Assembly (NCBI GenBank): GCA_036821485.1
Contig: DAISJM010000001.1
Coordinates: 140,313-204,312, forward strand
Source of the DNA: Verrucomicrobiota bacterium
GTDB taxonomy: Bacteria > Verrucomicrobiota > Kiritimatiellia > CAIQIC01 > JAGNIJ01
Length of the DNA stretch: 64,000 nucleotides
Reading direction: 5' to 3'
Below the pieces are notes generated by a model. That model had not been told where the DNA came from, ran no database searches, and saw only the letters and a program-made list of their open reading frames with translations. The position numbers and the translations under genes are program-made. Positions 1,700 through 63,690 of this stretch are shown piece by piece (positions within the stretch are counted from its first letter, which is position 1; every line of letters begins with the position of its first letter).

Positions 1700-4183
1700 A
1701 TGAGAGCGATTGCATCCCGGTTCTCTTCGTTGTTTCTCCTGAGTCTCCTCCTCACCGCGAAAGGGTGGGCGGCCGATCAGGAAGCTCGCATTCAGGAGCT
1801 GATCGATCAGATGTCGTTGGACGACAAGATCGCGATGGTGTCCGGCGAGGATCCGTGGATGACTCATCCAATTCCGCGCCTCGGCATTTCCAGCGTGAAG
1901 GTGGCCGACGGTCCGCATGGCGTCCGTAACGGCGGCAAGGCGACTTGCTTCCCGACGGGCATCGGCATGGCGGCGACTTGGAATCCCGATTTGGTGCGGC
2001 GTGTCGGCGTTGCGCTGGCGGAGGAAACGCGCGGCCGCGGCTTCGACATTCTACTCGGGCCGTGTGTGAACATCTGCCGCACGCCGCTCAACGGTCGGAA
2101 CTTCGAGGCATTCGGAGAAGACCCGTTCCTGATTTCGCGGATCGCGGTGGCGTACGTGAAAGGCATTCAGAGCCGAGGTGTCGGGACCTCGACGAAACAC
2201 CTGGCGTGCAACAACCAGGAGCGGGATCGATTCAGCGTCAATGTCCGCGTCGACGAGCGGGTCCTTCGCGAAATCTATCTGCCCGCGTTTGAAGCGGCGG
2301 TGAAGGAAGCCGATACGTGGACGGTCATGACGGCCCACAACAAGGTGAACGGCTCGTACTGCTCGGCCAACGATTTCCTCGTGAACAAGGTGCTCAAGGG
2401 TGAATGGGATTTCCGCGGCTTTACGGTCTCGGATTGGGGTGGCGTTCACGACACCGTCGGCGCGGCGAACGGCGGGCAGGATTTGGAAATGCCCGGACCC
2501 GCTGCGCAGTTCGGCGCCAAGCTGAAGAGCGCGATTGAAGCCGGGGCGGTCAGCGTGAATACGCTGGATGACAAGGTGCGGCGAATTCTGCGTGTGGTCG
2601 TGCTTGTGGGCGCGCTCGACCCGCGGCCGGCCGGGCCGGTGGGCGGGGTGGATACGCCGGAGCATCGGACCCTCGCGCGCGAAGCGGCGCGCGAGTGCAT
2701 GACCCTGCTCAAGAACACGAACAACGTCCTGCCGTTCGATGCGAAGAAGATCAAGAAGCTGGCGGTGATTGGTCCAAACGCGGATGCGGACAGCGTGGGC
2801 GGTGGGGGGAGTTCGCGTGTCACGCCGTTCTACTTCGTGACGCCGCTTGATGGGCTTCGCGAACGGTGCGGGAAGAACATCGAAATCGTCTACGAGCGCG
2901 GTTGTTCGATGGCGAACGAGTTGGATGCCGTTCCCGCGGGTGTGCTTTTCACATCGCGCACGCTGAAAGAGGCGGGGCTTCGCGCGGAGTATTTTGCGAA
3001 CAAGGATTTGTCCGGTACACCCGCGTTCACGCGCATTGATCCGGCGGTCGATTTCAACTGGCCGGACGGGCCGGGCGAAGGGCTGGCGGCGGACGGCTTC
3101 TCCGTGCGCTGGACAGGCGTTCTTGTAGCGCCGATGACGGGCGATTTTGAATTGGGAACTTACAGCGATGACGGTTCGCGGTTGTTCATCAACGGCGCGA
3201 TGCTGGTGGACAACTGGGGCAATCACGGGCCGCAGACGCAGGCGTATCACATTCAGTTGAGGAAGGGCGAACTGGTCGACCTGAAGATGGAGTATTACCA
3301 GGCTGGCGGTGGTGCGACCGCGAAGCTTGGCTGGATGGGTGGGGACGGCGGGATTCAGAAGGCGGTTGCGGCGGCGGCGCAGAGCGATGCGGCGGTGGTG
3401 TGCGTCGGATTGTCGGCCGAGTGCGAAGGCGAAGACCGTGACCGGCCGGATATGAAACTGCCGGGCAAGCAGGCCGAGCTTATCGAAGCCGTGATGGCCG
3501 CGAATCCGCGAACGATCGTGGTGTTCATCGGTGGGTCGCCCGTGGTGATGAATCCCTGGGTGGACCATGTTCCTGCCGTTGTCTGTGCGTGGTATCCGGG
3601 GCAAGAGTGCGGCCACGCGTTGGCGGACGTTCTGTTCGGCGATGTGAACCCCTCCGGGAAGATGCCGGTGACGTTTCCGAAGCAGTTGGAGGATAACCCG
3701 TCGGCTGAGAACTACCCGGGGAGCGATGGCGTGGAAGACTACGCGGAGGGGTTGCTGGTGGGCTACCGGTATTACGACACGAAGAACGTGGAGCCCCAGT
3801 TTCCGTTCGGGCACGGCCTGTCGTATACCGAATTCAAGTATGACCACCTGAAGGTAGATTCCGTTGGCCGGGTGGTGACCTTTGACGTCAAGAACACGGG
3901 TCGGCGGGCGGGGAAGGAAGTGGCCCAACTCTACATCGGCGATCCGAAGTGCAGCGTGGAGCGTCCGGTGAAAGAGCTGAAAGCCTTCCGGAAGATCGAA
4001 CTGCTTCCCGGTCAGCAGCAGACGGTTCGCTTCCAACTGGACGAGCGTGCCCTGTCCTTCTACGACGTGGCGACGCACCGCTGGGTGGCGGAGCCCGGCG
4101 ATTTTGATGTATCCATCGGAAGCTCCTCGCGTGATATTCGCCTGAAGGGAACGCTCACGCTCTCCTCGTCGGCCAAGCCATGA
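1700..4183 (+). CDS. Secreted GH3 beta-glucosidase/xylosidase with PA14 insertion and C-terminal Fn3-like domain
   Basis: Signal peptide; ADGPHGVR, GRNFE, KH..NNQE, nucleophile SDWG; PA14 segment (FSVRWTG, YSDDGSRLFING); FPFGHGLSYT. Confidence 0.92.
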   Translation: MRAIASRFSSLFLLSLLLTAKGWAADQEARIQELIDQMSLDDKIAMVSGEDPWMTHPIPRLGISSVKVADGPHGVRNGGKATCFPTGIGMAATWNPDLVRRVGVALAEETRGRGFDILLGPCVNICRTPLNGRNFEAFGEDPFLISRIAVAYVKGIQSRGVGTSTKHLACNNQERDRFSVNVRVDERVLREIYLPAFEAAVKEADTWTVMTAHNKVNGSYCSANDFLVNKVLKGEWDFRGFTVSDWGGVHDTVGAANGGQDLEMPGPAAQFGAKLKSAIEAGAVSVNTLDDKVRRILRVVVLVGALDPRPAGPVGGVDTPEHRTLAREAARECMTLLKNTNNVLPFDAKKIKKLAVIGPNADADSVGGGGSSRVTPFYFVTPLDGLRERCGKNIEIVYERGCSMANELDAVPAGVLFTSRTLKEAGLRAEYFANKDLSGTPAFTRIDPAVDFNWPDGPGEGLAADGFSVRWTGVLVAPMTGDFELGTYSDDGSRLFINGAMLVDNWGNHGPQTQAYHIQLRKGELVDLKMEYYQAGGGATAKLGWMGGDGGIQKAVAAAAQSDAAVVCVGLSAECEGEDRDRPDMKLPGKQAELIEAVMAANPRTIVVFIGGSPVVMNPWVDHVPAVVCAWYPGQECGHALADVLFGDVNPSGKMPVTFPKQLEDNPSAENYPGSDGVEDYAEGLLVGYRYYDTKNVEPQFPFGHGLSYTEFKYDHLKVDSVGRVVTFDVKNTGRRAGKEVAQLYIGDPKCSVERPVKELKAFRKIELLPGQQQTVRFQLDERALSFYDVATHRWVAEPGDFDVSIGSSSRDIRLKGTLTLSSSAKP

Positions 4184-5171: not shown

Positions 5172-5221
5172 TTTTCCAATCCTTGGAAAAACCCGTTCGG
5201 AATTTTCCAACCCTTGGAAAA
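5172..5221. repeat. TTTTCCAA-N3-TTGGAAAA palindrome doublet, 31-bp period
   Basis: Units at 5172-5190 and 5203-5221 with a 12-bp spacer. Confidence 0.9.
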
Positions 5222-5376
5222 AGACGTTGGAAGATTTTCCGGCGGGGGCTGCCGCCGGACGCAGGAACCGCTGCTACAACTCCACCTCCTCAATTCGCGC
5301 GTGCCCTGCGAAGCGCCGCGCGAAGAAGGGTCCATTCGTGTTAATTCGTGGTCGACTTCCTGCAGCGTCGTTCCGT

Positions 5377-5467
5377 TGTCATCTGGTTCTGGGGTCAGAC
5401 CTGTACGGTGTGCTGCCCAAATCCGAGGACGAGATTCTTCTGCCGCAGGAGCGGCATCAGAATGACA
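5377..5467. repeat. TGTCAT...ATGACA-bounded intergenic element
   Basis: Terminal inverted TGTCAT/ATGACA; right part GAGATTCTTC...CAGAATGACA resembles GAGATCCCTC...GGGATGACA at 27384-27430. Confidence 0.5.
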
Positions 5468-5570
5468 GCTTTCGGCGCGTTTCGTTGCTATCGCTCCGCC
5501 TCCGATCCGCGGTATCAGCGACATCCGCGGTTAAATGTCAGAAGCGGACATATTTGGATCGGAGTCTAAC

Positions 5571-5682
5571 CACTAATTTCCACTAAGCTGCACTAAGGGG
5601 GCGGAGTTAGTGTGACTTTAGTGACCCTTAGTGGTTAAGAATCTTCGGCCCTTTCGGCCTTCGACGAGCAAAGGCCCTACAG
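5571..5682. repeat. Composite intergenic repeat, copy B (inverted CACTAA x3 / TTAGTG x3 arrays plus REP hairpin)
   Basis: CACTAA at 5571, 5581, 5591; TTAGTG at 5607, 5618, 5628; 5602-5682 matches 1490-1567. Confidence 0.8.
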
Positions 5683-5737
5683 GGAACTGAAGCAGGAGGT
5701 CGCGAGGGCCCACTGGTTACCGATCACTGACTACCGG

Positions 5738-12882: not shown

Positions 12883-13110
12883 CCGGCGGCACCCTCGGAG
12901 CAGTGTAACCACCAATAGACACTAATGGACACTGATACGGGACGGTGAGGATGCGAGTTCGGGTTGGTGTCCCTCGCTGGTGGAGTATCCCCTTCGTTAG
13001 ATTCTGCTCAATACCCCCTCAACCTTTTGCTTGTCGCCGCATCGTTTGCTTGTCAGCATACCTGCGGGAGGAAGATGTCCGGCGCGAGGCCGGGACAGGC
13101 ATTTTTCATC

Positions 13111-16100
13111 ATGGGCAAGAAGGACCACGTCAGTCCCCCGGATGCCGACGGCCGTATTCCGGCCGGCAAGACCATCTCTGAATTTCTATCACAGGAAGGC
13201 CATGCCCGCGGCGTGGATCTCCGCGGTGGTGAGCCCTACGCCGAGTCTTCCATTCTCCGCGTGCAGGGCGGGGGGCGGTACGAAGTTGGCCCCGTCATCG
13301 CCCGCGGTGGCATGGGGGTCATTCACCAGGCGCGCGATCTGAATTCGCGGCGCGTGGTCGCGTTGAAGCTGCTGCCTCGCGATGCGCCGTGTCCAAGGGA
13401 GGACCTCCTCCGCTTCATCCGCGAGGGCCAGCTTACGTCCCAGCTCGAGCACCCGAATATCGTCCCCGTGCACGACATCGGTTTGGATGAATCGGGTCAG
13501 ATGTACTACACGATGAAGCTGGTCGAGGGCCAGACGCTGACGAGCATCTTGCAGGGCATCCGGAAGAACGATGCCGCGATGCTGGCGGAGTATCCGCTGG
13601 CCCGCCTGCTGAACATTTTCCAGAAGGTGTGCGATGCCGTCGCTTTTGCGCACTCGAAAGGCGTGGTGCACCGGGATCTGAAGCCCGACAACATCATGGT
13701 CGGCAGTTTCGGCGAGGTGCAGGTGATGGACTGGGGGCTGGCGCGCATCCTGCGCGCGATGGAAGAGGCGTCGGAGGATGCCGGGGAACGGCGGGCGTCG
13801 TGGGCCGACCGGGAACGGCTGCAGCAGGAAGAGGGTGGGCCGATTCCCACGGACGATTTTGGAGATACGCTCAAGACGATCAGCGGAAGAATCATGGGCA
13901 CGCCGGGCTTTCTCGCGCCCGAGCAGATTCTCCAGGATGCCGCGCAGCCGCCGGGCATGAAGGCGGATGTCTACTCCCTCGGCGCGGTACTCTACGCCAT
14001 CCTGACCCTGCGGCCGACGGTGAAAGGCGCCGACATTTCAGAAATGTTGCGGCATATCGTGGCGGGCGATTTCCCTGCGCCGGCCACGTTCAATGCGGCC
14101 GATGGCGAGGATGCCGGGCGGGCGCGCGAGACGAAGGCCGGATCGGTGCGACAGGGCGGATTCCCGCATTGCCCCGACGGTTGGATACCTACCGCGCTTT
14201 CGGATATTGCCATGAAGGCGCTGGCGACCCGGCCGGAGGATCGTTACAGCTCGGTGCAGGAGCTGCAGCGCGAGATCGAGGATTACCAGAATGGCTACGT
14301 ATGGCACCTGGTGATCGATGAGGATTTCTCGGACCCCGGCGCGTTGTCGCGTTGGGTGGTGTCGGGTGGCCGCGCCGAGATTCAGGACGGCGAATTGCGT
14401 TTGCGCGAGGGCGAGCCACAGGTGTTGATGCTCCGGCGTGAGGTGCCGGGTGATGTCCGCATCGAGTTTGAATGCCGCCAGGTGGGAAGCTACCTGAATT
14501 GCATGGGTTGCTTCATGAACGCGATCCGCGCGGATAACTACCGCGAGATTCCGTGGAGCGGCTACGAGTTTGAGTATGGCGGCTACGAGAACTCGCGCAA
14601 CGCGATCCATCGCTCCAACTCGCAGATGTGGATTGATCCCGCCGCGCCGCTGGCCTCCGACATCAAGTACGAGGTCCTCGCGGAACGCGTCGGGTCGCAC
14701 CTGCGGATGGTGGTCAATGGCCGGGAAGTCGTGGCGCTGACCGATCAGGACCCGTTGTCGGGCAGCGATCGCGTGGCGGTGGGATTCGTGGGGTGGAACA
14801 CGGACACGCGGTTCACGCGGATTCGGATTTCCACGCTGGGCACGCCGTGGAAGGGCGACGTGCTGGATGTTGCCGAGCGGCAGATTCAGAAGGGCCGTTA
14901 CGATGCGGCCATCGGGTTGTTCGAAGATACGCTGGAGTCCTTCCCGGATGCCGAACGGCGGCGGCGCGCGGAGGCGGGTCTGCGCACGGCCCGGCAGCGG
15001 CGCAATTTGGGCCGCCAGTTGCCGGCGTGGAATGCCGCGCTGCAGAAGGCGTGGCCCGGCATGGGGATCGAGTTGCAGGTGGTCAACGATGGGCTGTCGC
15101 TCAATCTCAACGAACTGCCGGTGAGGAACCTGGAACCACTGCGGGGCATGCCGCTCAACATTCTCTATTGCGCGCACGGCGAGATTGCCAGCCTGGAACC
15201 GTTGCGGGGCATGCCGCTGACCGCGTTGAACTGCACGGGAAATCCGATCCGGACATTGGAGCCGCTGCGTGGGATGCCGTTGACGACCCTGCTGGCCGAG
15301 GATTGTCCCGTCGCAGATTTGGAACCGCTGCGCGGCATGAAACTCAAAATGCTGCAGATCGGCTTGAGCGAGGTGGTTGACCTTGAGCCCTTGCGGGGCA
15401 TGCCGCTGACTTTCCTGCACTGCTGGTCATCGCGCGTGGAAAGCTTGGAGCCGCTGCGCGGCATGCGGCTCGACACGCTGAACTGCGCCGGTAACCGGAT
15501 CACGGGCTTGGAGCCGCTCGCGGGCATGCCGCTCAACAACCTGCACTGCGGCGGCAACCGGATCAAGTATCTCGAGCCGCTCGCGGGCATGCCGCTGACC
15601 GTGTTGCATTGCGGGGACAACCAGATCGAGGATATCTCGGTGCTGGCCGGACTGCCGCTGACGATTCTCGGTTGCCACAGCAACCGGATCACGACGTTGC
15701 GCCCGCTGCTCGGCGTACCGCTGGCGTCCGTCACCTGCGGGGATAATCCGATCCGCGACCTGGGGCCGTTTGTGGCGCGCCCGCCGGAAATCATCCACTT
15801 CGAGAGTGAAAGTCTTCCCGATGCCGAACTGGAAAAACTGCGCTCCCAGTGGTCGAAGAATCCCGAGTTCGCCCGGCACGCAAGCGAAGTAGAGACGCTG
15901 CTGCTCCTTCGTCGCGGCGATGTGAAGGGGTTGAAGGCGCGGGCGGCGGAATTCCGGGGACACCGCTATCTCTTCATTCCAAAATTCATGCGATGGGACG
16001 ATGCTCGCGTTTACTGCGAGAAGCTGGGCGGCCATTTGCTGACGATTACGTCGCGCGAAGAGGATGAGTTCATCGCATCGCTTTTTGAAGGCGGCTGTTT

Positions 16101-16287
16101 CTTCTGGATGGGTTTGTTTGTGAGCGAGCGCGGTCCTGAATGGGTGACGGGCGAGCCGTTTACCTACAAGAACTTCGTCGGCGAAATGCACGAAATGTGC
16201 CGCGGTCCGAAAGCCTTTGCGCGCTTCTGGCGCGCCGACCATGTGGCCGATGCGCACAACGGTTTCATGATCGAGTGGGATGCGTAG
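13111..16287 (+). CDS. Hanks-type Ser/Thr kinase fused to a beta-jelly-roll-like domain, about 10 x 21-aa LRRs and a C-type-lectin-like domain
   Basis: ARGGMG, VALK, HRDLKPDN, DWGLAR, GTPGFLAPEQ, DVYSLG; LEPLRGMPL repeats at about 15127-15770; WDDARVYCEKLGGHLLTITS. Confidence 0.85.
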   Translation: MGKKDHVSPPDADGRIPAGKTISEFLSQEGHARGVDLRGGEPYAESSILRVQGGGRYEVGPVIARGGMGVIHQARDLNSRRVVALKLLPRDAPCPREDLLRFIREGQLTSQLEHPNIVPVHDIGLDESGQMYYTMKLVEGQTLTSILQGIRKNDAAMLAEYPLARLLNIFQKVCDAVAFAHSKGVVHRDLKPDNIMVGSFGEVQVMDWGLARILRAMEEASEDAGERRASWADRERLQQEEGGPIPTDDFGDTLKTISGRIMGTPGFLAPEQILQDAAQPPGMKADVYSLGAVLYAILTLRPTVKGADISEMLRHIVAGDFPAPATFNAADGEDAGRARETKAGSVRQGGFPHCPDGWIPTALSDIAMKALATRPEDRYSSVQELQREIEDYQNGYVWHLVIDEDFSDPGALSRWVVSGGRAEIQDGELRLREGEPQVLMLRREVPGDVRIEFECRQVGSYLNCMGCFMNAIRADNYREIPWSGYEFEYGGYENSRNAIHRSNSQMWIDPAAPLASDIKYEVLAERVGSHLRMVVNGREVVALTDQDPLSGSDRVAVGFVGWNTDTRFTRIRISTLGTPWKGDVLDVAERQIQKGRYDAAIGLFEDTLESFPDAERRRRAEAGLRTARQRRNLGRQLPAWNAALQKAWPGMGIELQVVNDGLSLNLNELPVRNLEPLRGMPLNILYCAHGEIASLEPLRGMPLTALNCTGNPIRTLEPLRGMPLTTLLAEDCPVADLEPLRGMKLKMLQIGLSEVVDLEPLRGMPLTFLHCWSSRVESLEPLRGMRLDTLNCAGNRITGLEPLAGMPLNNLHCGGNRIKYLEPLAGMPLTVLHCGDNQIEDISVLAGLPLTILGCHSNRITTLRPLLGVPLASVTCGDNPIRDLGPFVARPPEIIHFESESLPDAELEKLRSQWSKNPEFARHASEVETLLLLRRGDVKGLKARAAEFRGHRYLFIPKFMRWDDARVYCEKLGGHLLTITSREEDEFIASLFEGGCFFWMGLFVSERGPEWVTGEPFTYKNFVGEMHEMCRGPKAFARFWRADHVADAHNGFMIEWDA

Positions 16288-21016: not shown

Positions 21017-21646
21017 CTATTCCGTGGAGATGCGGTAATGGTAGGGGCCCGCTCCGGTGGCCGTCTCGTCGGTGTAAACATTGATCGTCGGCGTGGCGGT
21101 GATGTTGGTCTTCAGGTTGGAGAAGTTCGTGGTGAGAAGGCCGCTGGATCTTTGCAGGCGGTACTTTTTCCCGGCGACGCTGGACCACGAGATCACGGAG
21201 TTCGACGCTTGAAACCTGAGACTTGAAACTTGGAACACTGAGGCCGCGTTAGTCGGCTGCGTGCCTGCGAGCAGTTCGTCCGTATTCCACATTCCGTCGC
21301 CGTCGGTGTCCGGGTCCGTCGGGTCCGTCTGATCCTGGTAGTGTTTCAGGTTGCTGATGGTGTCCTGGTTGAAATCGCCGGCGGCGGTGTTGGTGAGACC
21401 GTTGAACCAAACCAACTCCCACGCGTCGGGGAGGGTGTCGCCCTCGGTGTCCGCTTCTCCCTGGATGCCGATGGCGACGGACTGCGTGATGTTGCCGAAC
21501 GAGTCGTAGGCGTAGTTCACGCGTTGCGTGCTCGAGAGGCGCGACTCCGACAGTCGCCCATCGCTGTCGAAGACGAACGATTGAGAGCGCGCTGTCACGG
21601 TCAGCGCGGCCCATGCCATGCACCACACTATGATTCGTCTTGTCAT
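21017..21646 (-). CDS. Secreted single-YD-repeat protein with DxDGDG repeats and ...HYR C-terminal domain (RHS partner)
   Basis: ATG overlaps the RHS TGA (TGATG); signal peptide; FDSDGRL...YAYDSFGNIT; DTDGDGMWNTDELLAGTQP. Confidence 0.75.
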   Translation of the reverse strand: MTRRIIVWCMAWAALTVTARSQSFVFDSDGRLSESRLSSTQRVNYAYDSFGNITQSVAIGIQGEADTEGDTLPDAWELVWFNGLTNTAAGDFNQDTISNLKHYQDQTDPTDPDTDGDGMWNTDELLAGTQPTNAASVFQVSSLRFQASNSVISWSSVAGKKYRLQRSSGLLTTNFSNLKTNITATPTINVYTDETATGAGPYHYRISTE

Positions 21647-24600
21647 CAGAATGAGCTCGGCATCGAATTCCAGACGGCCTGTTCCTCCGGCGTCATCGGA
21701 GTCTCCGATACGACGCACCGCCATTGTGCTTCCAGCGCGCGCTGCCTTTCTCCGTTTTCCCAGGCAGAGCGCTCATACTGTTCAAGCAACTTCGCCGCGA
21801 GCGCCTCCAGTTCGCTGGCTTCGACGGGACCGATGATGCCGGCCTCGGCCAGACCCTTTCCAAATCCGCTCAACTCCGATCCTTGAAGGATGTCGTCGCT
21901 GATGGATGTTGCCATTTCCACCGAGCCTTCGAGGTCAAAGGTGTTGTCGTCCTCCGTGCCTTCCGGGTCTATCCGGTCCACCGGATTGCCGCGCACGTAG
22001 CGGTATACATTCACATCCGGCAGCAGGCCCAGCGGATCGCGCTGGAGGAATCGGCCGGCGGTCGCGTCGTAACAGCGGGCCTTCATGAAGTAGAGCCCGC
22101 CGCCTTCGTCCGTCACGCCGTACCGGCCGATGAAGGTGAACGGGTTGTTCATCCGGCTGTAACCGCCCGCCGGCTGGCCGTAGGCGTCGTACCGATAGAG
22201 CGCCGACAGTTTCCCTTGCTCGTCGGTCATCGCGATGGTGCTGCCGTTCTTGTCGGCGTGGTAGAAGTGAGTGCCCCTGCCGGCGAACCACGCCGCGACC
22301 AGCGCCCGGCCGCGGTAGAAGTAGAGCGCGGTGACGCGGGAGGCTCCGTCATCTTCGCAGATCAGTCGATCGGCGTGGTCGTAGTACAGCCGCCGTGCGG
22401 AGCCCCCGGTTGTCACGCTCGCGCGGCGCCCGAGCGCGTCGTAGGTCCACGCGCTGTTCGTTCCCCCGCGAGTGATGGAGGTCAGCCGGTTTGCGGTGTC
22501 GTAGGCGGCGGTAAAGTTGGTTCCGGCGGTCTGATTGCCGTCCGCATCGTAGGTGCAGGCGGATGTGTTGCGTTGGGTGGCCTCGTTGGCCACGTCGAAC
22601 CGCGCGCGGTTCGTGGCGGGGGACTGCAGGGGCGACCACGGGATCAACCCACCTTGCTTCACGATGTTCGTCGTTTGACCGGCGGCATCGCGGTAGTAGG
22701 CAAGCTGGATGAGGTTGCTGGTGCCGGCGCGGTGGAGGATTCCGGTGGGATCGTTGGCGGCGTCCCAGCCCCAGTAGGTATCGCCGCCGTTCGAGCGCTG
22801 TTCGCGGAGCGGATTGCCTTCCGCGTCATACGTGAAGCGAATCCAGTTCGCACCCCACGCCATGTTGGTGACGCGGTCACGGCTGTCGCAGGCGTAGGAA
22901 ACGACGGTGCCGTCGGGATAGGTCATGGTGGTGACGTTGCCCTCCGGGTCGCGCGCGAACGACAGCGTCCTGCCGCCGGGATAGCGCGCGGCAATCACGT
23001 CGCCGCGAGCGTCGTAGGTGTACGAGAATGAACCGGCATCGTTGGAGAAATTCGTCAGCCGCAACGCGGCGTCGTAGGCGAAGACGCTGGCTGCCCCGTT
23101 TTCCACGCGGCCGATCAGCAACCCGTCCGCGTCGTAGGTGAAGCCTGTCCGCTGGAAGCGGGCGTTGAACGTGTTGGTGAGTCGGCCCAGCGGATCGTAG
23201 TAGCAGCTCGTGAAATGCCACAGCGGATCGTTGATCGACTGCACGCGATTCATGCAGTCGAAGCTGAAGCTGTAGAAGTCGCTGGAGAACGCGCTGGTGC
23301 TGACCGACGAGATGTTGTCGTTCGCATCGTAGGTGTAGTACATGGAGCGGCCGAGCGCGGTGATGTGGTTGGTCATCCGGCCCGCGGCGTCGTACCGGTA
23401 CGTGTTGGTTCGCGCGAGCGGATCGACGATGCGCTTGAGCTTGTTGAAGTTGTTGTAGGCGTAGGTCGTGCGACGCCCCATGGGGTCGATCGACGCCGTC
23501 GGCCACAGCATGGCGTTGCGCTCGACCGTGGTGGTCCGACTGTTCCCGTCGATCCGCTGCGATTCCGCGCAGCAGTCATACACGATCCGTTCGGTTGTGC
23601 CGTCGGGCCGGATGGTTCGCGTGCGCCGCCGCAGCGCATCGTATTCGAAGCGGGTGACGAAGCCGCGCCGGTTGGTGATGGCGACGACATCGAAGCCCGC
23701 GGCGTCATAACCGAAGGTCGCGGAGTACCCGAGCGGATCGGTCATGCGGGTGGGTTTGCCGAGCGAGTTGAACGCGAAGGTGGTGCGTTCGCCGGCGGCG
23801 TTGACGGCGGCCGTGACGAGGCCGAGCGCGTTGTACTGCCAGCGTTGTTCGCGGCCGCCGAACGAGACGAGATTGGTGAGGTTGCCGCGGCTGTCGTATC
23901 CGAATCGCATGGCCTGTCCAAGCGCGTTGGTTGCCGCCGCGATGCGGCCCTTGGCGTCGTAGCCGCGGGTTTCGACCGTGCCGTCGTAGTTCACGCGCCG
24001 CAGCAGGCGCCCGTGTGGATCGTAGCTCATGCGCATCGTGCAGCCGCCGGGGTTGGTGACGGTCGTCGCCCAGCCGTTGCTGTACGAGGTGAGCGTATAG
24101 CGGTCCGTGGGGTCCTTGACCTGCGTGGTCATTCCGTTGCTGCTGTAGTAGATCCAGAATCCGCCGGTCGGATCGTCACGCCAGACCGCGCGGTTGTCCA
24201 TGGGCTGGCTCATCGCGTAGTAGTAATTGGTGCGGCCGAGCGCGTCCGCGACCGTTGAAATCCGCGTGTACGTTCCTGCCACGCTGCCGGTCTCCCAGGT
24301 GAAGGTCCACGTCCGGCCCTCGGTGGACATGTTCGTCATGTAGTGCTGGGCGTTGTAACGAAAGAGGGTTGTGTTGCCGGCCGCATCGCGGCTTTCGACA
24401 AGATTCTGGTTCGCGTCGTAACGGTACGCGCAGGCCGCGCCGCCCGGCACGATCACGTTGGTGCAGCGGCCCTGTGCGTCGTACTGGAATCGGGTTGAGC
24501 GGCCGACGGCGTCGGTGATGTTGGTCAGGCGCGTGCCGTTGTAGCCGAGCGTCACCCGGTTCGAATTGCCGTCCTCGATGCGCACCAGCGGAATCCAGGC

Positions 24601-25830
24601 ATCGCGCACATCGGCGCTTTCGTAATACCACGTGTCGCCGGTCCGGGGATCGAACCACTCGTAGACCCAGACGCCGCGGGCCGTGTCGTTCGTGCGCCGG
24701 AAGCGGCGCGTCTCGCCGGGCGGCACGACATAGTCGCCGTCCCATGTGACGAGCGGAGTGACGGAATCCGACGAGCGCGCGCTCGTGTTGGTCACGTAGT
24801 ACACGGGGATTTCTCCGCCCGCCTGGTTCGTGTCGATGCTGCCCGGCGGAACGCCGTAGTACATCGCCTGGCCGGAGCCGCCGTAGCGGGAGACGGTCAG
24901 GTACGAGCCGGAGAGATGGGACTCGGCGGAGAACGTCCAGCCGCGTCCGAACATGCCCGTCGCCGCGGGGTTCGCGTTCCATGTGCGGGTGAAGGTGAGG
25001 TCGGGGCCCGGGCTGGAGTAGGCGTAGTCGGTGTCTTCGACGAGGAGGTTCAGTGTGCACGTGTTGATGCGGAAGCCGGGCAGGCCCATCGGCACGCACC
25101 CGCCGCAGCCCTCGGGTTTGTGGAACTTCACCGGCGGCTCGAAGCCGGTGTATTCCGGCAGGCCCATGAGCCATTCCCAGTAGCCGATGGCGAGCGCGTC
25201 TTTCGGGATGATGTAGATGTACACGAATTTCATGTCGCGGATGTCGGGCCAGTAGTTCGTCTGCGAATCAAGGGTGGCCGAGAGGATTTCAATCTGGCTG
25301 TACGTCCGGTTGGGCACAAAGGGATCGCGGTGTGTGAGATTGAGCACGGCGGGCGGCGACCCCTCCGCGTGCCAGACCAGGTGCGAGCGCCAGAGGCAGT
25401 GCGTGTAGGGAATGTCGATCCGGCCCTGCCGCTCAAGCGGGATCGAGTTGGAGAGCAGCTGGGTATTGGCCACGCTCATCGAAACGCCGTAGCTCATGTC
25501 CGGCTTCAGCGGCGCGGCGTAGGTGATCTGCGTTATCTCCGGTGTGTCGGACCGGCTGACCAGTTGAATTTGCGCGTCGGGAATTTCGGCGATCGACCAC
25601 TGCACCGTGATGAGTCCGCCGGTGGAGGTCATGCCCGGGGCGATTGCGGGCACAAGGAGGACCAGCACGGCGACGATTTTCCAAGCGTTGGAAAAATGGC
25701 GGCGCGATTTTCCAAGGGTTGGAAAAACTGAACGGGATTTTTCCAAGGGTTGGAAAAACCGTCCCGCACACCACCTCGTCACGGCTTTGTACACGTTGAC
25801 GCCCATGGTGAGAACAAGCGCCCGGCCCAT
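21646..25830 (-). CDS. RHS/YD-repeat protein with N-terminal signal peptide and RHS-associated core; short acidic C-terminal tip
   Basis: AAGGAGG upstream; DUF6531-like TFTRTWN...MFGRGW; more than 25 YDxxG repeats; core RFLQRDPLG...NPVDRIDPEG; start codon uncertain (25830 or 25806). Confidence 0.88.
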   Translation of the reverse strand: MGRALVLTMGVNVYKAVTRWCAGRFFQPLEKSRSVFPTLGKSRRHFSNAWKIVAVLVLLVPAIAPGMTSTGGLITVQWSIAEIPDAQIQLVSRSDTPEITQITYAAPLKPDMSYGVSMSVANTQLLSNSIPLERQGRIDIPYTHCLWRSHLVWHAEGSPPAVLNLTHRDPFVPNRTYSQIEILSATLDSQTNYWPDIRDMKFVYIYIIPKDALAIGYWEWLMGLPEYTGFEPPVKFHKPEGCGGCVPMGLPGFRINTCTLNLLVEDTDYAYSSPGPDLTFTRTWNANPAATGMFGRGWTFSAESHLSGSYLTVSRYGGSGQAMYYGVPPGSIDTNQAGGEIPVYYVTNTSARSSDSVTPLVTWDGDYVVPPGETRRFRRTNDTARGVWVYEWFDPRTGDTWYYESADVRDAWIPLVRIEDGNSNRVTLGYNGTRLTNITDAVGRSTRFQYDAQGRCTNVIVPGGAACAYRYDANQNLVESRDAAGNTTLFRYNAQHYMTNMSTEGRTWTFTWETGSVAGTYTRISTVADALGRTNYYYAMSQPMDNRAVWRDDPTGGFWIYYSSNGMTTQVKDPTDRYTLTSYSNGWATTVTNPGGCTMRMSYDPHGRLLRRVNYDGTVETRGYDAKGRIAAATNALGQAMRFGYDSRGNLTNLVSFGGREQRWQYNALGLVTAAVNAAGERTTFAFNSLGKPTRMTDPLGYSATFGYDAAGFDVVAITNRRGFVTRFEYDALRRRTRTIRPDGTTERIVYDCCAESQRIDGNSRTTTVERNAMLWPTASIDPMGRRTTYAYNNFNKLKRIVDPLARTNTYRYDAAGRMTNHITALGRSMYYTYDANDNISSVSTSAFSSDFYSFSFDCMNRVQSINDPLWHFTSCYYDPLGRLTNTFNARFQRTGFTYDADGLLIGRVENGAASVFAYDAALRLTNFSNDAGSFSYTYDARGDVIAARYPGGRTLSFARDPEGNVTTMTYPDGTVVSYACDSRDRVTNMAWGANWIRFTYDAEGNPLREQRSNGGDTYWGWDAANDPTGILHRAGTSNLIQLAYYRDAAGQTTNIVKQGGLIPWSPLQSPATNRARFDVANEATQRNTSACTYDADGNQTAGTNFTAAYDTANRLTSITRGGTNSAWTYDALGRRASVTTGGSARRLYYDHADRLICEDDGASRVTALYFYRGRALVAAWFAGRGTHFYHADKNGSTIAMTDEQGKLSALYRYDAYGQPAGGYSRMNNPFTFIGRYGVTDEGGGLYFMKARCYDATAGRFLQRDPLGLLPDVNVYRYVRGNPVDRIDPEGTEDDNTFDLEGSVEMATSISDDILQGSELSGFGKGLAEAGIIGPVEASELEALAAKLLEQYERSAWENGERQRALEAQWRCVVSETPMTPEEQAVWNSMPSSF
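25677..25757. repeat. TTTTCCAA-N3-TTGGAAAA palindrome triplet, 31-bp period, inside the RHS ORF
   Basis: Units at 25677, 25708 and 25739 with 12-bp spacers. Confidence 0.92.
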
Positions 25831-25935
25831 TCCGGAAGCATGCCTCCTTGGGGCGTATTCTAGGAGATCGGGCGGAATCTGTCACGGTCATGCCGCGCTG
25901 GATTTTGGGGCGTTCCGGCCCTAGAGTGGGGCGCC

Positions 25936-28038: not shown

Positions 28039-28057
28039 ATTTCCAAGCATCGGAAAA
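28039..28057. repeat. Degenerate solo copy of the TTTTCCAA-N3-TTGGAAAA palindrome
   Basis: ATTTCCAA-GCA-TCGGAAAA in the divergent rnhA/ABC-F promoter region (two mismatches). Confidence 0.5.
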
Positions 28058-30043: not shown

Positions 30044-30082
30044 TTGACATGCATGCATGACTCGTGTAGTCATGCATACATG
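30044..30082 (+). promoter_or_regulatory. vapBC promoter/operator; probably leaderless
   Basis: TTGACA at 30044-30049; inverted repeat CATGcATGCATGAC-N7-GTCATGCATaCATG ending on the vapB ATG; no SD. Confidence 0.65.
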
Positions 30083-30319
30083 AAGACGATTACTCTGACG
30101 GACGAGGCCTATGAGCGGTTGCTCTCCTGGAAGGGTGCCTCCAAGGAATCGTTTTCCAAGGTGGTGCTGTCGGTCGTTCCTAAGAAAGGAACCTTGGGGC
30201 AGATGTTGGAAGACGTGAAATCCCTGCCGGCGTTGTCGTCGAGACAGGTCAGGGTGATGGAGGAGGCCGCAACCTGGGGCAGGAAGCCTGAGACGCTGAA
30301 GGACAAATGGACCTCCTAG
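30080..30319 (+). CDS. vapB: VapB-type antitoxin (archaeal-style VAPB_antitox/DUF217-like)
   Basis: MKTITLTDEAYERL...ESFSKVV; overlaps the PIN toxin gene. Confidence 0.75.
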   Translation: MKTITLTDEAYERLLSWKGASKESFSKVVLSVVPKKGTLGQMLEDVKSLPALSSRQVRVMEEAATWGRKPETLKDKWTS

Positions 30320-30714
30320 CTGACACCACGTTCCTGATCGATCTATGGCGGGAGCAACGCGCCCCGGGTTCCGCCACGAGTTTCGCCAAGCGGAGCGCGG
30401 ACCTTGCGTTGGGATTGCCCTGGGTTGTTGTGGGGGAATTCCTCAGTGGAGGAGTGCTTGCCGGGCAGGATGGAGAACTCCTGGACGCTTTTGTGCAGCG
30501 CTATTCCATCATTCATTCCACGGATCGTATCGTGAACAGCTATGCGCAGATCTTCGCCTCTGTTCGAAAGGAGAGGATTTCCATGGGGCCCAACGATCTC
30601 TGGATTGCGGCATGTGCGGATGCTCTTGATCTTCCCTTGGTCACGCGGAACGCGGCGGACTTTGAGGTGGTATCATCCATTCGTGTGTTGAGTTACAAGG
30701 ACGGGGGTCTGTGA
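30307..30714 (+). CDS. vapC: PIN-domain VapC toxin
   Basis: LADTTFLID, VVGEF, GPNDLWIAA and LVTRNAADF acidic PIN motifs. Confidence 0.9.
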   Translation: MDLLADTTFLIDLWREQRAPGSATSFAKRSADLALGLPWVVVGEFLSGGVLAGQDGELLDAFVQRYSIIHSTDRIVNSYAQIFASVRKERISMGPNDLWIAACADALDLPLVTRNAADFEVVSSIRVLSYKDGGL

Positions 30715-31240: not shown

Positions 31241-31375
31241 CGCACCTCTCGAGGAGTCGGCGAATTCATATTTGGGCCTGTTTCGGGCCTAATTCGTTAT
31301 AGTAAAGCGCTTGACGTTCGTGTCTGGGCGGGTTAACTATTATCTCATCCCAATTTCATAGTGGAGGGTGTGGCG

Positions 31376-32146
31376 ATGAGAAAGCTATTCATCGTTGCCT
31401 TGTTTGTGGTTTGTGTGGCCGTGACTCACGCGTCGCTGTTGGCTTCCGACAACGCAAGCGATGCTGCCTATAACAACGGTTGGACGAATGGTGCTGACGG
31501 CGGGACGGGATTTGGCGCCTGGACACTGAATGCGGCGGCCAACGCCGGGTACTTCGTCGGCTCTTCGGTCAACAACGGAACCTTTCCCAGCGGTGGCATC
31601 GACACGTCCGGAGGAAAGTCGTGGGGTTTCTACGCGAATAGCGGTTCGTCGGCGCACGGCTACCGGCAGTTTGAAGGCGGGGCGCTTTCGGTCGGACAGT
31701 ATTTCATGATTGATTACGACAACGGCTGGCTTGGCGGTGGGTCGAGCGTTGGCTGGGGTCTCCAGAATGCCAGCGGCGAGAATCTGTTTGAGTGGTACTT
31801 CGCGGGTGGTGATTCCTTCTACACGATCAACAAGTATGGGGGCATCGGCGCCAGCAGCAATGGATGGACCGATGGCGGCTTGAAGCTTCAGTTCGGTTTG
31901 GTCAGCACCACGAACTTCTCATTGTCGGTCATTCAGGGTACGCAAACCAACACCTACAGTGGCTCGCTTCTCGCTCCGGCCGATCAAGGCATCCAGCAGG
32001 TGCACGTCTGGAACTACAACGCAGGGTCCGGCCAGAACTACGACGCTTTTGTCAACAGCATGCAGGTGGTTCCGGAACCGTCCGCGATTATCCTGACACT
32101 GCTGGGCGCGGGCATGCTCCTCGGGCTTGTGCTCAAGATGTTCTGA
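31376..32146 (+). CDS. PEP-CTERM sorting-domain surface protein
   Basis: Signal peptide; Gly/Asn/Trp-rich domain; C-terminal VPEPS plus hydrophobic helix. Confidence 0.88.
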   Translation: MRKLFIVALFVVCVAVTHASLLASDNASDAAYNNGWTNGADGGTGFGAWTLNAAANAGYFVGSSVNNGTFPSGGIDTSGGKSWGFYANSGSSAHGYRQFEGGALSVGQYFMIDYDNGWLGGGSSVGWGLQNASGENLFEWYFAGGDSFYTINKYGGIGASSNGWTDGGLKLQFGLVSTTNFSLSVIQGTQTNTYSGSLLAPADQGIQQVHVWNYNAGSGQNYDAFVNSMQVVPEPSAIILTLLGAGMLLGLVLKMF

Positions 32147-41631: not shown

Positions 41632-41681
41632 TTTTCCAATGCTTGGAAAAACGGGCCGCACTTTTTCCAACCCTTGGAAAA
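41632..41681. repeat. TTTTCCAA-N3-TTGGAAAA palindrome doublet, 31-bp period
   Basis: Units at 41632 and 41663 with a 12-bp spacer, about 57 bp upstream of the E1 alpha start. Confidence 0.9.
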
Positions 41682-46507: not shown

Positions 46508-47101
46508 ATGATCGCATTTCTTCAAGGGATACTGGTGGAGAAAGAACCTACGCACATCCTGATGGATGTCGGCGGGGTGGGTTACGAGGTCTTCATTCCA
46601 CTGAGCAGTTACGAGCGGCTGCCGGCGGTCAACACGGCTTGTCGCATCCTGACCTATGACCACGTACGCGAGGACGCGCACGTGCTTTACGGGTTCATGA
46701 CCGCCGAGGAGCGGCGGATGTTTCTCCTGCTCATTGATGTCAGCGGGATCGGCCCGAAGCTGGCCATGACGGCGCTCAGTGGTCTTTCCGTACGCGACCT
46801 CAAGGCGTCCGTCGCGCAGGCCGATGTGAAGCGGCTGAGCGCGGTATCGGGCATCGGGAAGAAGACGGCCGAGCGGATTGTGCTGGAGTTGAAGGACAAA
46901 CTTGGCGCGGGCGAGTCGATGGAAGCCGTGACCGGCGGTGCGGAGCCGACGGAAGAGAATCTCAGAATGAGGGATGCGATCCTCGCGCTGGTCTCGCTGG
47001 GTTACAAGCAGGCGGATGCGCAGGACTTGGTCCGGAAGGTGGCGGCGACGACGCCCGATGCCAGCCTGGAAGACTTGGTGCGCAAAGCGCTGGCGAAATG
47101 A
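46508..47101 (+). CDS. ruvA: Holliday junction branch migration protein RuvA
   Basis: [31 protein letters not shown] and [15 protein letters not shown] motifs. Confidence 0.95.
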
Positions 47102-47105
47102 ACAT

Positions 47106-63640: not shown

Positions 63641-63690
63641 TTTTCCAATGATTGGAAAATGCGGGGCCTGTTTTTCCAATGATTGGAAAA
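63641..63690. repeat. TTTTCCAA-N3-TTGGAAAA palindrome doublet, 31-bp period
   Basis: Units at 63641 and 63672 (both TGA centre) with a 12-bp spacer, between mfd and the EEP gene. Confidence 0.9.

What the first reader, a model, noticed from the sequence alone, without database searches (positions are those of the whole stretch)
25677..25757. Palindrome triplet translated in frame inside the RHS signal-peptide region
Seen: the only intragenic array is also the only triplet. It spans 81 bp (27 codons; three periods = 93 bp), so the frame is kept, whereas a doublet (50 or 62 bp) would shift it. The three copies are read in the three different frames (FFQPLEK, FPTLGK, FSNAWK). They sit between a basic n-region (…YKAVTRWCAGR) and the hydrophobic core (IVAVLVLLVPAIAPG). 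An AAGGAGG SD lies upstream of ATG 25830, and no usable start exists between the repeat and the hydrophobic core. Inference: the repeat was recruited into a coding sequence, analogous to Rickettsia palindromic elements. Gain or loss of one unit would switch the RHS gene off (possible phase variation), or a bound protein could roadblock its transcription.
Basis: partly seen in the sequence, partly recalled or inferred. Interest (0 to 1): 0.75.

Follow-up and report, generated by a model that had tools for sequence, protein, structure and literature searches.

The report
Palindrome array translated inside signal peptide
Three copies of a 19-bp DNA palindrome, which occurs in regularly spaced arrays throughout the genomes of Kiritimatiellia bacteria, lie inside the start of an RHS toxin gene and are most likely translated as a lysine-rich extension of its export signal, so the same DNA probably serves as a protein-binding site and as coding sequence.

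Summary
Three perfect copies of TTTCCAA-N3-TTGGAAA lie at 25678, 25709 and 25740, exactly 31 bp apart (0 expected by chance). They sit in the open frame of a 1394-aa RHS protein, between an AAGGAGG+ATG (25830) and a hydrophobic core that begins at the codon after the last copy.

The array is not a one-off. The same palindrome (TTTTCCAAT-S-ATTGGAAAA) forms arrays of 1-7 units in more than 115 loci from about 35 Kiritimatiellia-type MAGs. Spacings are 22, 31, 42 or 62 bp, near whole helical turns.

In at least 13 loci the signal-peptide core of a secreted protein (sulfatase, PKD, FG-GAP, TIG/Kelch, beta-lactamase) follows the last unit at once and in frame. Several have no possible start codon in between. 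Translation of the repeat is therefore likely (about 0.75).

- Frame-keeping triplets: translated arrays have 2-6 units, and 79% of all frames run open through arrays.
- Phase variation: orthologous sulfatases both keep 4 units.
- RPE-like insertion: in thiL the units arose in place, without any length change.

The family looks like phased binding sites for an unidentified dimeric DNA-binding protein. I found no description of it in the literature searched.

The parts
25857..25885 (-). sigma-70-like promoter match GTGACA-17 nt-TAGAAT. It would place the transcription start near 25850.
   Evidence: 10 of 12 consensus matches; 1 site found against 0.1 expected in shuffles. This is a consensus match only.
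25843..25849 (-). Shine-Dalgarno sequence AAGGAGG, 12 nt upstream of ATG 25830
   Evidence: This genome uses SD sequences: a 5-mer SD precedes the first in-frame ATG of 22% of genes, against 3.9% of background windows. About four of the other nine AAGGAGG copies in the window also sit just upstream of a start codon.
25828..25830 (-). most likely start codon of the RHS gene
25758..25827 (-). codons 2-24 (GRALVLTMGVNVYKAVTRWCAGR) and the first two bases of codon 25, before the array
   Evidence: codon score +0.05 in the ORF frame against -0.56 and -0.47 in the other frames. This lies between coding (0.33 +/- 0.15) and intergenic (-0.46 +/- 0.36) values.
25740..25756 (.). palindrome unit 1 in gene order, read as F-Q-P-L-E-K. 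It contains an in-frame TTG at 25746-25744, a possible alternative start.
25709..25725 (.). palindrome unit 2, read as F-P-T-L-G-K
25678..25694 (.). palindrome unit 3, read as F-S-N-A-W-K. Its last AAA supplies the lysine that abuts the hydrophobic core.
25633..25677 (-). signal-peptide h/c-region IVAVLVLLVPAIAPG. It contains the rival start GTG 25668-25666 and is followed by the rival start ATG 25632-25630.
   Evidence: codon score +0.34 in frame
21646..25830 (-). RHS/YD-repeat protein, 1394 aa (DUF6531, 13 RHS repeat stretches, DPLGL motif before a C-terminal tail of about 110 aa)
5173..5220 (.). sister array, doublet with period 31, between convergent genes
28040..28056 (.). single degenerate unit between divergent rnhA and an ABC-F gene
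41633..41680 (.). sister array, doublet with period 31, 58 nt upstream of the E1 dehydrogenase gene
63642..63689 (.). sister array, doublet with period 31, 39 nt upstream of an endonuclease/exonuclease/phosphatase-family gene

Best explanation
The triplet is one array of a family of helically phased palindromic sites found across the class Kiritimatiellia. The consensus unit is TTTTCCAAT-S-ATTGGAAAA and the usual period is 31 bp.

In this gene the array lies about 95-175 nt downstream of the probable promoter and inside the reading frame. Translation most likely starts at ATG 25830, behind the AAGGAGG, and runs through all three units. The units then form a long, lysine-rich n-region (FFQPLEK..FPTLGK..FSNAWK) directly in front of the hydrophobic core of a Sec-type signal peptide on an exported RHS toxin.

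The array is tolerated there for three reasons. The invariant part of the palindrome has no stop codon in any frame. Its GGAAAA end reads as Gly-Lys or Trp-Lys in two of the three registers. And signal-peptide n-regions accept almost any basic sequence.

Shown:
- the array, its register and the absence of a usable start between the array and the core;
- recurrence of the same architecture in unrelated secreted proteins and in orthologues;
- the symmetric, DNA-type conservation of the site and its helical phasing.

Inferred:
- ATG 25830 is the start that is actually used;
- the sites bind an unidentified dimeric DNA-binding protein. Because the array lies in the transcribed region, that protein would act on this gene as a roadblock or repressor, or as a chromosome-organising factor.
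For: Anatomy of the RHS locus:
- establish the array and its register.
- Codon usage of the h-region is coding-like only in the ORF frame.
- A promoter-like site, the SD and the ATG lie in the right order upstream.

Family-wide distribution:
- More than 115 loci from about 35 PVC/Kiritimatiellia MAGs carry the doublet.
- Arrays have 1-7 units, with spacings of 31 (213 intervals), 30/32 (52), 22 (35), 42-43 (8) and 62-63 (5) bp.

Nature of the site (252 units):
- The centre base is G or C in 250 of 252 units, and positions 8 and 10 prefer T and A. The palindrome therefore runs through its centre.
- There is no orientation bias relative to the gene (TGA 43 against TCA 37).
- There is no compensatory covariation and no excess of G.U over A.C mismatches. 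This pattern fits a double-stranded DNA site for a dimer, not an RNA hairpin.

Translation in analogous genes:
- Of the 21 reading frames (three per strand, both strands, tested after each of the 177 arrays) in which a strongly hydrophobic stretch follows the array at once, 71% have an upstream in-frame ATG and 33% an SD+ATG. In 937 non-hydrophobic control frames the figures are 28% and 4%.
- L002, L096, L097 and L004 have no canonical start between the array and the hydrophobic core.
- These proteins carry extracellular domains: PKD, beta-lactamase x4, TIG/Kelch, FG-GAP, LamG, sulfatase.
- The sulfatase orthologues L013 and L123 both carry 4 units between a conserved ATG and the core, while Prosthecobacter-type orthologues have ordinary 18-22 aa signal peptides.

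Origin of units inside genes:
- Units lie inside thiL at the same offsets in 7 orthologues, with no gap against solved ThiL structures.
Against: - There is no experimental start-site, transcript or proteome data.
- The segment before the array has only intermediate codon usage (+0.05). About 8% of intergenic windows score as high.
- GTG 25668, 11 nt after the GGA of the last unit, could be a start. That would leave the array in the 5' UTR.
- The promoter call is a single consensus match, and the same scan found nothing in three analogous loci.
- A Pro follows the AIA motif, so the cleavage site is uncertain. No trained signal-peptide predictor was available.
- The binding protein is hypothetical.
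- Part of the 31-bp peak, and all of the core conservation, is ascertainment bias: the loci were fetched with a 31-bp doublet pattern. The loop, flanks, copy numbers and other spacings are not biased in this way.
- Gene calls in the loci came from a crude script of my own.
Confidence: 0.6

Rival explanations
1. The array lies in the 5' untranslated leader. The RHS protein starts downstream, at GTG 25668 (using the GGA of the last unit as a weak ribosome-binding site) or at ATG 25632. The open frame through the repeat is then an accident of a stop-free palindrome in a GC-rich genome.
For: - 79% of all frames run open through arrays.
- Most arrays in the family lie upstream of the start codon, often 2-60 nt from it.
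- Automatic gene callers pick starts inside arrays, for example a TTG in the last unit for P0121 and a GTG in a spacer for P0122.
- The codon score of the segment before the array is only +0.05.
Against: - A start at GTG 25668 leaves an N-terminus MLVLLVPAIAPG with no basic n-region. A start at ATG 25632 removes the only hydrophobic segment of a protein type that must be exported.
- The h-region has coding-type codon usage.
- A perfect AAGGAGG plus an in-frame ATG lies upstream.
- Four analogous genes have no canonical start after the array.
Confidence: 0.2
2. The units are selfish, REP- or RPE-like mobile palindromes that inserted into the RHS gene and elsewhere and are merely tolerated. They have no function of their own.
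For: - Presence/absence between relatives: L083 has a 2-unit array exactly between the ruvA stop and the ruvB ATG, where the window has only ACAT.
- L065 has an array that is absent from the homologous region of L062.
- Arrays occur between convergent genes (14 of 177) and inside genes.
Against: - The same consensus is kept across MAGs with 51-70% GC and many genera. REP families usually differ between species (general knowledge).
- In thiL the units overlie existing codons with no length change and stay at the same offsets in 7 orthologues. An epimerase gene shows conserved units at orthologous positions as well.
- Spacers differ while spacing is held at helical-turn multiples.
- No transposase link was examined.
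Confidence: 0.15
3. The palindromes act as RNA hairpins in the 5' part of mRNAs, controlling translation initiation, elongation pausing before membrane targeting, or mRNA stability.
For: - Many arrays must be transcribed, because they lie 2-30 nt from start codons or between cistrons.
- The RHS 5' region folds more stably than shuffled sequence (-96 against -80.6 kcal/mol, z = -3.1).
Against: - Conservation is symmetric through the loop: the centre is always G or C in either orientation, and positions 8 and 10 are complementary, which a triloop hairpin does not need.
- There is no bias relative to the direction of transcription, no compensatory changes and no G.U tolerance on the sense strand.
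- Arrays also occur between convergent genes.
- There is no Rfam match.
Confidence: 0.12
4. The array is a phase-variation switch: gain or loss of one 31-bp unit shifts the frame and turns the RHS gene off.
For: - 31 is 1 modulo 3, so a one-unit change would break the frame from ATG 25830 (direct from the sequence).
- Copy number differs between arrays in the family (1-7 units).
Against: - No length polymorphism was observed.
- The only orthologous pair of translated arrays (L013 and L123) has the same 4 units in the same registers despite about 18% protein divergence.
- Spacers within an array differ, so the repeats are short (17-21 bp) and not prone to high-rate slippage.
- The one candidate for an out-of-phase allele (L006) lies in an unreliable ORF.
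Confidence: 0.05

Closest known systems
Rickettsia palindromic elements (RPE)
   Same: Repeated palindromic DNA found inside protein-coding genes and translated in frame, in tolerant parts of proteins.
   Different: From general knowledge, RPEs are 100-150 bp mobile insertions confined to Rickettsia, and they add residues to the protein. Here the units are 19-21 bp in phased arrays and are conserved across a whole class. In thiL they replaced existing codons without adding length.
REP/BIME elements of Enterobacteria and Pseudomonas
   Same: Short palindromes present in many copies per genome, clustered, often within transcribed intergenic regions, and known to bind host proteins (IHF, gyrase).
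   Different: REPs are extragenic, imperfect and GC-rich, alternate in orientation, and differ between species (general knowledge). Here the palindromes are perfect, AT-rich and also occur inside genes. They are direct arrays at helical-turn spacing, with one consensus across many genera. A link to a RAYT transposase was not tested.
HIP1 (highly iterated palindrome, cyanobacteria) and DNA uptake sequences (USS/DUS)
   Same: A lineage-wide, highly over-represented motif written into coding regions by substitution in codon-compatible registers, and kept at orthologous positions.
   Different: HIP1 is 8 bp, and USS/DUS are 9-12 bp and not palindromic (general knowledge). None of them forms phased arrays near the 5' ends of genes.
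Phased operator arrays such as tandem NrdR boxes (two 16-bp palindromes 31-32 bp apart)
   Same: Palindromic sites for a dimer, repeated at about three helical turns so that the bound proteins lie on one face of the DNA.
   Different: NrdR boxes occur only upstream of nrd genes and have a different sequence (general knowledge). Here arrays lie next to very diverse genes, with 5 arrays in 64 kb and up to 7 units per array.
Extended signal peptides (for example ESPR of type V secreted proteins)
   Same: A long N-terminal extension precedes an otherwise ordinary n-h-c signal peptide on large secreted proteins.
   Different: ESPR is a conserved protein motif. Here the extension is the by-product of a DNA motif read in three registers, and it has no protein-level conservation outside the units.

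Membership tests
Rickettsia palindromic elements | Element of about 100-150 bp with terminal inverted repeats | tested here: not met
   Units are 17-21 bp palindromes with 10-14 bp variable spacers.
Rickettsia palindromic elements | Insertion adds residues relative to orthologues that lack the element | tested here: not met
   The thiL doublet aligns without gaps to solved ThiL structures. For the RHS gene this cannot be tested, because its N-terminal domain has no homologues.
REP/BIME | Strictly extragenic location | tested here: not met
   Units lie inside thiL, an epimerase gene, pabB, hypF, a kinase gene and signal-peptide coding regions.
REP/BIME | Association with a RAYT (IS200/IS605-type) transposase | not tested
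   Whole genomes were not available for scanning.
Sec-type signal peptide (RHS N-terminus) | Positively charged n-region followed by a hydrophobic core of 7-15 residues | tested here: met
   The n-region has K/R/H at 12 positions if translation starts at ATG 25830. The core IVAVLVLLVPAIA has 13 residues.
Sec-type signal peptide (RHS N-terminus) | Small residues at -3 and -1 of a cleavage site, scored by a trained predictor | tested here: inconclusive
   AIA is followed by Pro, which is unfavourable at +1. APG|M is an alternative site. No SignalP-type tool was available.
RHS/YD-repeat toxin | RHS repeat shell, with DUF6531 upstream and a DPxGL-type motif before a variable C-terminal tail | tested here: met
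   Pfam RHS_repeat E=4.6e-79 in 13 stretches; DUF6531 E=2.9e-7. '...QRDPLGLLPD...' is present in the translation.
Phase-variable contingency locus | Observed length polymorphism of the repeat tract that switches the frame | not testable with these tools
   No reads or second assemblies of this locus were available. The orthologous sulfatase arrays keep 4 units, which argues against high instability.
Operator array for a dimeric DNA-binding protein | Dyad-symmetric site conserved through its centre, with spacing in whole helical turns | tested here: met
   The caveat is ascertainment bias for the 31-bp class.
Operator array for a dimeric DNA-binding protein | An identified protein that binds the site | not testable with these tools
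   No candidate was identified.

The most novel reading that the evidence does not exclude
Kiritimatiellia possess an undescribed global DNA-binding protein. Its phased palindromic sites have been written into their genomes, including into coding sequence by substitution, as in thiL and an epimerase gene. At genes for secreted proteins the same DNA doubles as code for an extended, lysine-rich signal-peptide n-region. One stretch of DNA would then be under selection both as a binding-site array and as a peptide.
Probability: 0.35. Interest if true: 0.8.

Novelty: new variant of a known kind. Interest (0 to 1): 0.68.

Why it matters
If the reading is right, it matters in four ways.
- Annotation: automatic gene callers place the start of such genes inside the array (P0121 starts at a TTG within a unit). 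This would truncate signal peptides and mislabel secreted sulfatases, glycan-binding proteins and toxins in a lineage studied for polysaccharide degradation.
- Regulation: it points to an uncharacterised regulator or nucleoid protein specific to this lineage, with arrays at about one in ten gene junctions in this window. The protein could be found by DNA pull-down in cultured Kiritimatiella or Pontiella.
- Evolution: it is a clean natural example of DNA with two uses, a binding site and a coding sequence. It shows that the signal-peptide n-region is a place where such overlap is tolerated.
- Origin of genomic palindromes: the thiL case shows sites arising in place, not by insertion, which bears on how highly iterated palindromes spread.

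Tried and rejected
- Orthologues of the RHS N-terminus. There were none in 5.8 billion proteins. A metagenome scan found only a weak hit to the RHS-repeat part.
- Rfam on the whole window: no match.
- Sigma-70 consensus scans. They gave one hit in the window, none in three analogous loci, and no positional pattern over 90 arrays. The position of the arrays relative to promoters remains open.
- RNA-hairpin reading. I tested it through covariation, G.U asymmetry and orientation bias and found no support.
- Synonymous-site constraint in thiL. GAA and AAA are invariant in the units, but they are common codons there (53% and 77%), and 21 of 144 invariant columns use a single codon anyway. This is not decisive.
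- L006 as a possible out-of-phase allele. Rejected, because the downstream ORF looks non-coding.
- Viral contigs: only 2 hits among 2.9 million, which is uninformative.
- Literature. Four searches and two Kiritimatiellia genome papers do not mention the motif.
- My first classification put 52 arrays 'deep inside' ORFs. Inspection showed that several of these are antisense or spurious ORFs (L047, L095). Only thiL, hypF, pabB, the kinase gene and the epimerase gene are accepted as real.
Full report
**1. The observation**

The window at 25677-25757 holds three perfect copies of TTTCCAA-N3-TTGGAAA, with cores at 25678, 25709 and 25740, exactly 31 bp apart. A search allowing one mismatch finds 10 units in the window against 0.00 expected from shuffles. 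Allowing three mismatches gives 12 against 1.05.

The other units are doublets at 5173/5204, 41633/41664 and 63642/63673, all with period 31, and one degenerate unit at 28040. The triplet lies in ORF 21646-25830 (-), a genuine RHS protein (RHS_repeat E=4.6e-79, DUF6531). The three units are read as FFQPLEK, FPTLGK and FSNAWK.

AAGGAGG sits at 25849-25843, 12 nt before ATG 25830. The hydrophobic run IVAVLVLLVPAIAPG begins at 25677, the codon after the last unit.

**2. The family**

They come from about 35 MAGs labelled Kiritimatiellae, Kiritimatiellales, Tichowtungia, or more loosely Lentisphaerae, Verrucomicrobiota or Spartobacteria, with 51-70% GC. One of them, L083, is 74-85% identical in DNA to the window around ruvB.

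Arrays have 1-7 units: 47, 68, 31, 27, 8, 13 and 2 arrays with 1 to 7 units respectively. Centre-to-centre distances are 31 (213 intervals), 30 or 32 (52), 22 (35), 42-43 (8) and 62-63 (5) bp, that is, about 2, 3, 4 or 6 helical turns. At least one 31-bp interval per locus is due to the search pattern. The window, which was not chosen in that way, shows 31 bp in all five of its intervals.

I aligned 252 units, oriented by the downstream gene. The palindrome extends through its centre:
- Position 8 prefers T and position 10 prefers A.
- The centre base is G (130) or C (120), almost never A or T (1 each).
- Loop orientation is unbiased (TGA 43, TCA 37).
- Deviations in the two half-sites are independent (G/C at the outermost pair: 4 observed, about 6 expected).
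- G.U-type and A.C-type mismatches are about equal.

This is the signature of a double-stranded site for a symmetric dimer, not of an RNA hairpin. There is no Rfam match. I found no mention of the motif in four literature searches or in two Kiritimatiellia genome papers.

**3. Where arrays sit**

I used a crude codon-usage gene caller of my own. Of 177 arrays, 60 lie at the 5' end of a gene with the stop-to-stop frame open through them. A further 38 lie in intergenic regions facing a gene start, and 26 face only 3' ends. About 50 lie inside ORFs, and several of those ORFs are spurious.

The downstream genes are very diverse. They include ATP synthase beta, enolase, valS, ruvB and aroC, and many encode secreted proteins. 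The last unit is often only 2-30 nt from the start codon. In L083 a two-unit array fills the space between the ruvA stop and the ruvB ATG, where the window has only ACAT. Many arrays must therefore be transcribed, and their presence differs between relatives.

**4. Is the RHS triplet translated?**

Several lines of evidence agree.

(a) Codon usage. The 15 codons after the array have coding-type usage only in the ORF frame (+0.34 against -0.30 and -0.73; coding windows average 0.33 +/- 0.15). Translation must therefore begin at or above 25677. The 24 codons before the array score +0.05 (other frames -0.56 and -0.47). That is intermediate: 4% of coding windows score lower and 8% of intergenic windows score higher.

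(b) Upstream signals. A sigma-70-like site, GTGACA-17-TAGAAT, lies at 25885-25857 (0.1 expected). It would start the transcript just before the AAGGAGG. SD sequences are genuinely used in this genome.

(c) Recurrence. In other MAGs, the hydrophobic core of a large ORF follows the last unit at once and in frame. Examples are:
- L002: SKHWK-IALAALLALLGASGWAMA
- L004: SNGWK-LFFVALAGLPLSAQA
- L014, L068, L096, L097, L106, L013, L089, L111 and others.

I tested all six reading frames after each array. Of the 21 frames with a strongly hydrophobic stretch right after the array, 71% have an upstream in-frame ATG and 33% an SD+ATG. In 937 control frames the figures are 28% and 4%. L002, L096, L097 and L004 have no canonical start between array and core. 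The proteins carry extracellular domains: PKD, four beta-lactamase domains, TIG/Kelch, FG-GAP, LamG and sulfatase.

(d) Orthologues. The sulfatases of L013 and L123 (about 82% identical) both have four units, in the same registers, between a conserved ATG and the core. The ATG follows TTGACA-17-TAGAAG/TAGATA and lies within a GntR-type operator. Orthologues from Prosthecobacter and others have ordinary signal peptides of 18-22 residues.

In some genes translation probably starts inside the array. L014 and L091 have an ATG in the loop of the last unit (CCA ATG ATT GGA AAA), L004 has an ATG in the last spacer, and L097 has an ATG in the loop of the second-last unit. For the RHS gene the only internal candidate is TTG 25746, which has no SD. 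I put the probability that at least the last unit is translated at about 0.8, and that ATG 25830 is the start at about 0.7.

**5. What is not supported**

The claim that a triplet keeps the frame while a doublet would not is not a rule. Translated arrays have 2-6 units, and 79% of all frames are open through arrays, because the invariant part of the palindrome contains no stop codon.

Phase variation has no support. The only orthologous pair keeps its copy number, and no polymorphism data exist.

The RPE analogy holds only in the loose sense that palindromes are translated. In thiL of L072 and six orthologues, units sit at the same offsets (about 278, 310, 654 and 740-790), read as FQTLEK..FSNLWK and so on. 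The region aligns without gaps to solved ThiL structures (DFQTLEKIYAEFSNLWKTYG against DHEWLEGFSQGIYDCCNQFG). So the sites arose there by substitution, not by insertion. An epimerase gene next to thiL also keeps a perfect unit in several orthologues. Further doublets inside genes occur in pabB (L039), hypF (L074) and a kinase gene (L018).

**6. Mechanism**

The best reading is that the units are sites for an unidentified dimeric DNA-binding protein that binds cooperatively on one face of the helix. Arrays lie mostly in the first part of transcription units. Where the 5' leader is short, they overlap the coding sequence.

That overlap is tolerable in signal-peptide n-regions. All three registers give short peptides ending in Lys (FSNxWK, FPxxGK, FQxLEK), and n-regions need little beyond positive charge. 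On the RHS gene, a protein bound at about +95 to +175 would be expected to hinder transcription. That step is inferred.

The rivals are a 5' UTR location with a downstream start (0.2), a selfish REP/RPE-like element (0.15), an RNA hairpin function (0.12) and a phase-variation switch (0.05).

**7. Verdict**

The repeat is probably translated. The frame-count, RPE and phase-variation arguments fall away. The underlying element is a conserved family of phased palindrome arrays found across the class, for which I found no description.

Noticed in passing
L072:3514-3562 and 3890-4032; the same CDS offsets in L117-L122: thiL of Kiritimatiellales carries 4-5 palindrome units inside the coding sequence, at conserved offsets in 7 orthologues. 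They read as FQTLEK..FSNLWK, IPMxG and FP(R/M)IG(K/N). There is no length change relative to solved ThiL structures, so the units arose by substitution and not by insertion. They are decaying in L120 and L122.
   Followed up: yes
L072:792; L117:396; L118:397: A single perfect or near-perfect unit (TTTCCAATCATTGGAAA) lies inside the NAD-epimerase gene divergent from thiL. It overlies the FPMIGSG motif and is kept in three orthologues.
   Followed up: partly
L083:4340-4400 against window 47090-47105: A two-unit array fills the ruvA-ruvB junction in a relative, L083 (about 74-85% DNA identity to the window in this region), with the last unit 2 nt before the ruvB ATG. The window has only ACAT between the ruvA stop and the ruvB start.
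   Followed up: yes
L013:7130-7260 (-) and L123:1000-1125: The array-bearing sulfatase gene is divergent from a GntR/UTRA regulator gene. Two conserved palindromes, GTGGC-CTA-GCCAC and GTGGC-TAT-GCCAC, flank a TTGACA-17-TAGAAG promoter and are probably the regulator's operators. The second contains the likely start ATG.
   Followed up: partly
P0121 and P0122: Public gene calls start these sulfatases at a TTG inside the last palindrome unit (MELPAIALA...) or at a GTG in a spacer. The first gives a signal peptide with an acidic n-region and no basic residue, which is probably a mis-annotation caused by the array.
   Followed up: partly
window 5173-5250: This doublet lies between convergent genes. 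It is followed by TTGGAAGATTTTCC and a lone left half-site at the expected next 31-bp position, which looks like a decayed third unit. About 500 bp (5230-5737) after it have no convincing gene and no Rfam match.
   Followed up: partly
window 21017-21724 (-): A 235-aa ORF overlaps the 3' end of the RHS gene. It carries one RHS repeat and a bacterial TSP3 repeat. It may be an orphan RHS fragment rather than an immunity gene.
   Followed up: partly
window 30044-30714 (+): A VapB-type antitoxin (91 aa) and a PIN-domain toxin (135 aa) with overlapping ends form a VapBC pair.
   Followed up: partly
window 31361-32146 (+): A secreted protein ends in VPEPSAIILTLLGAGMLLGLVLKMF, a PEP-CTERM-type sorting signal. 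It has no Pfam hit.
   Followed up: no
window 12964-16287 (+), tandem repeat 15443-15596: A large Ser/Thr kinase carries LRR repeats and a C-type lectin domain. The 63-bp tandem repeat found by TRF lies within or next to the part of the gene that encodes the LRR repeats.
   Followed up: no
L009, L022, L046, L053, L056, L071, L092, L111, L115 (rumen MAGs): In rumen Kiritimatiellae the arrays alternate 22- and 30/31-bp spacings (a 52-bp super-period) instead of a uniform 31 bp.
   Followed up: no
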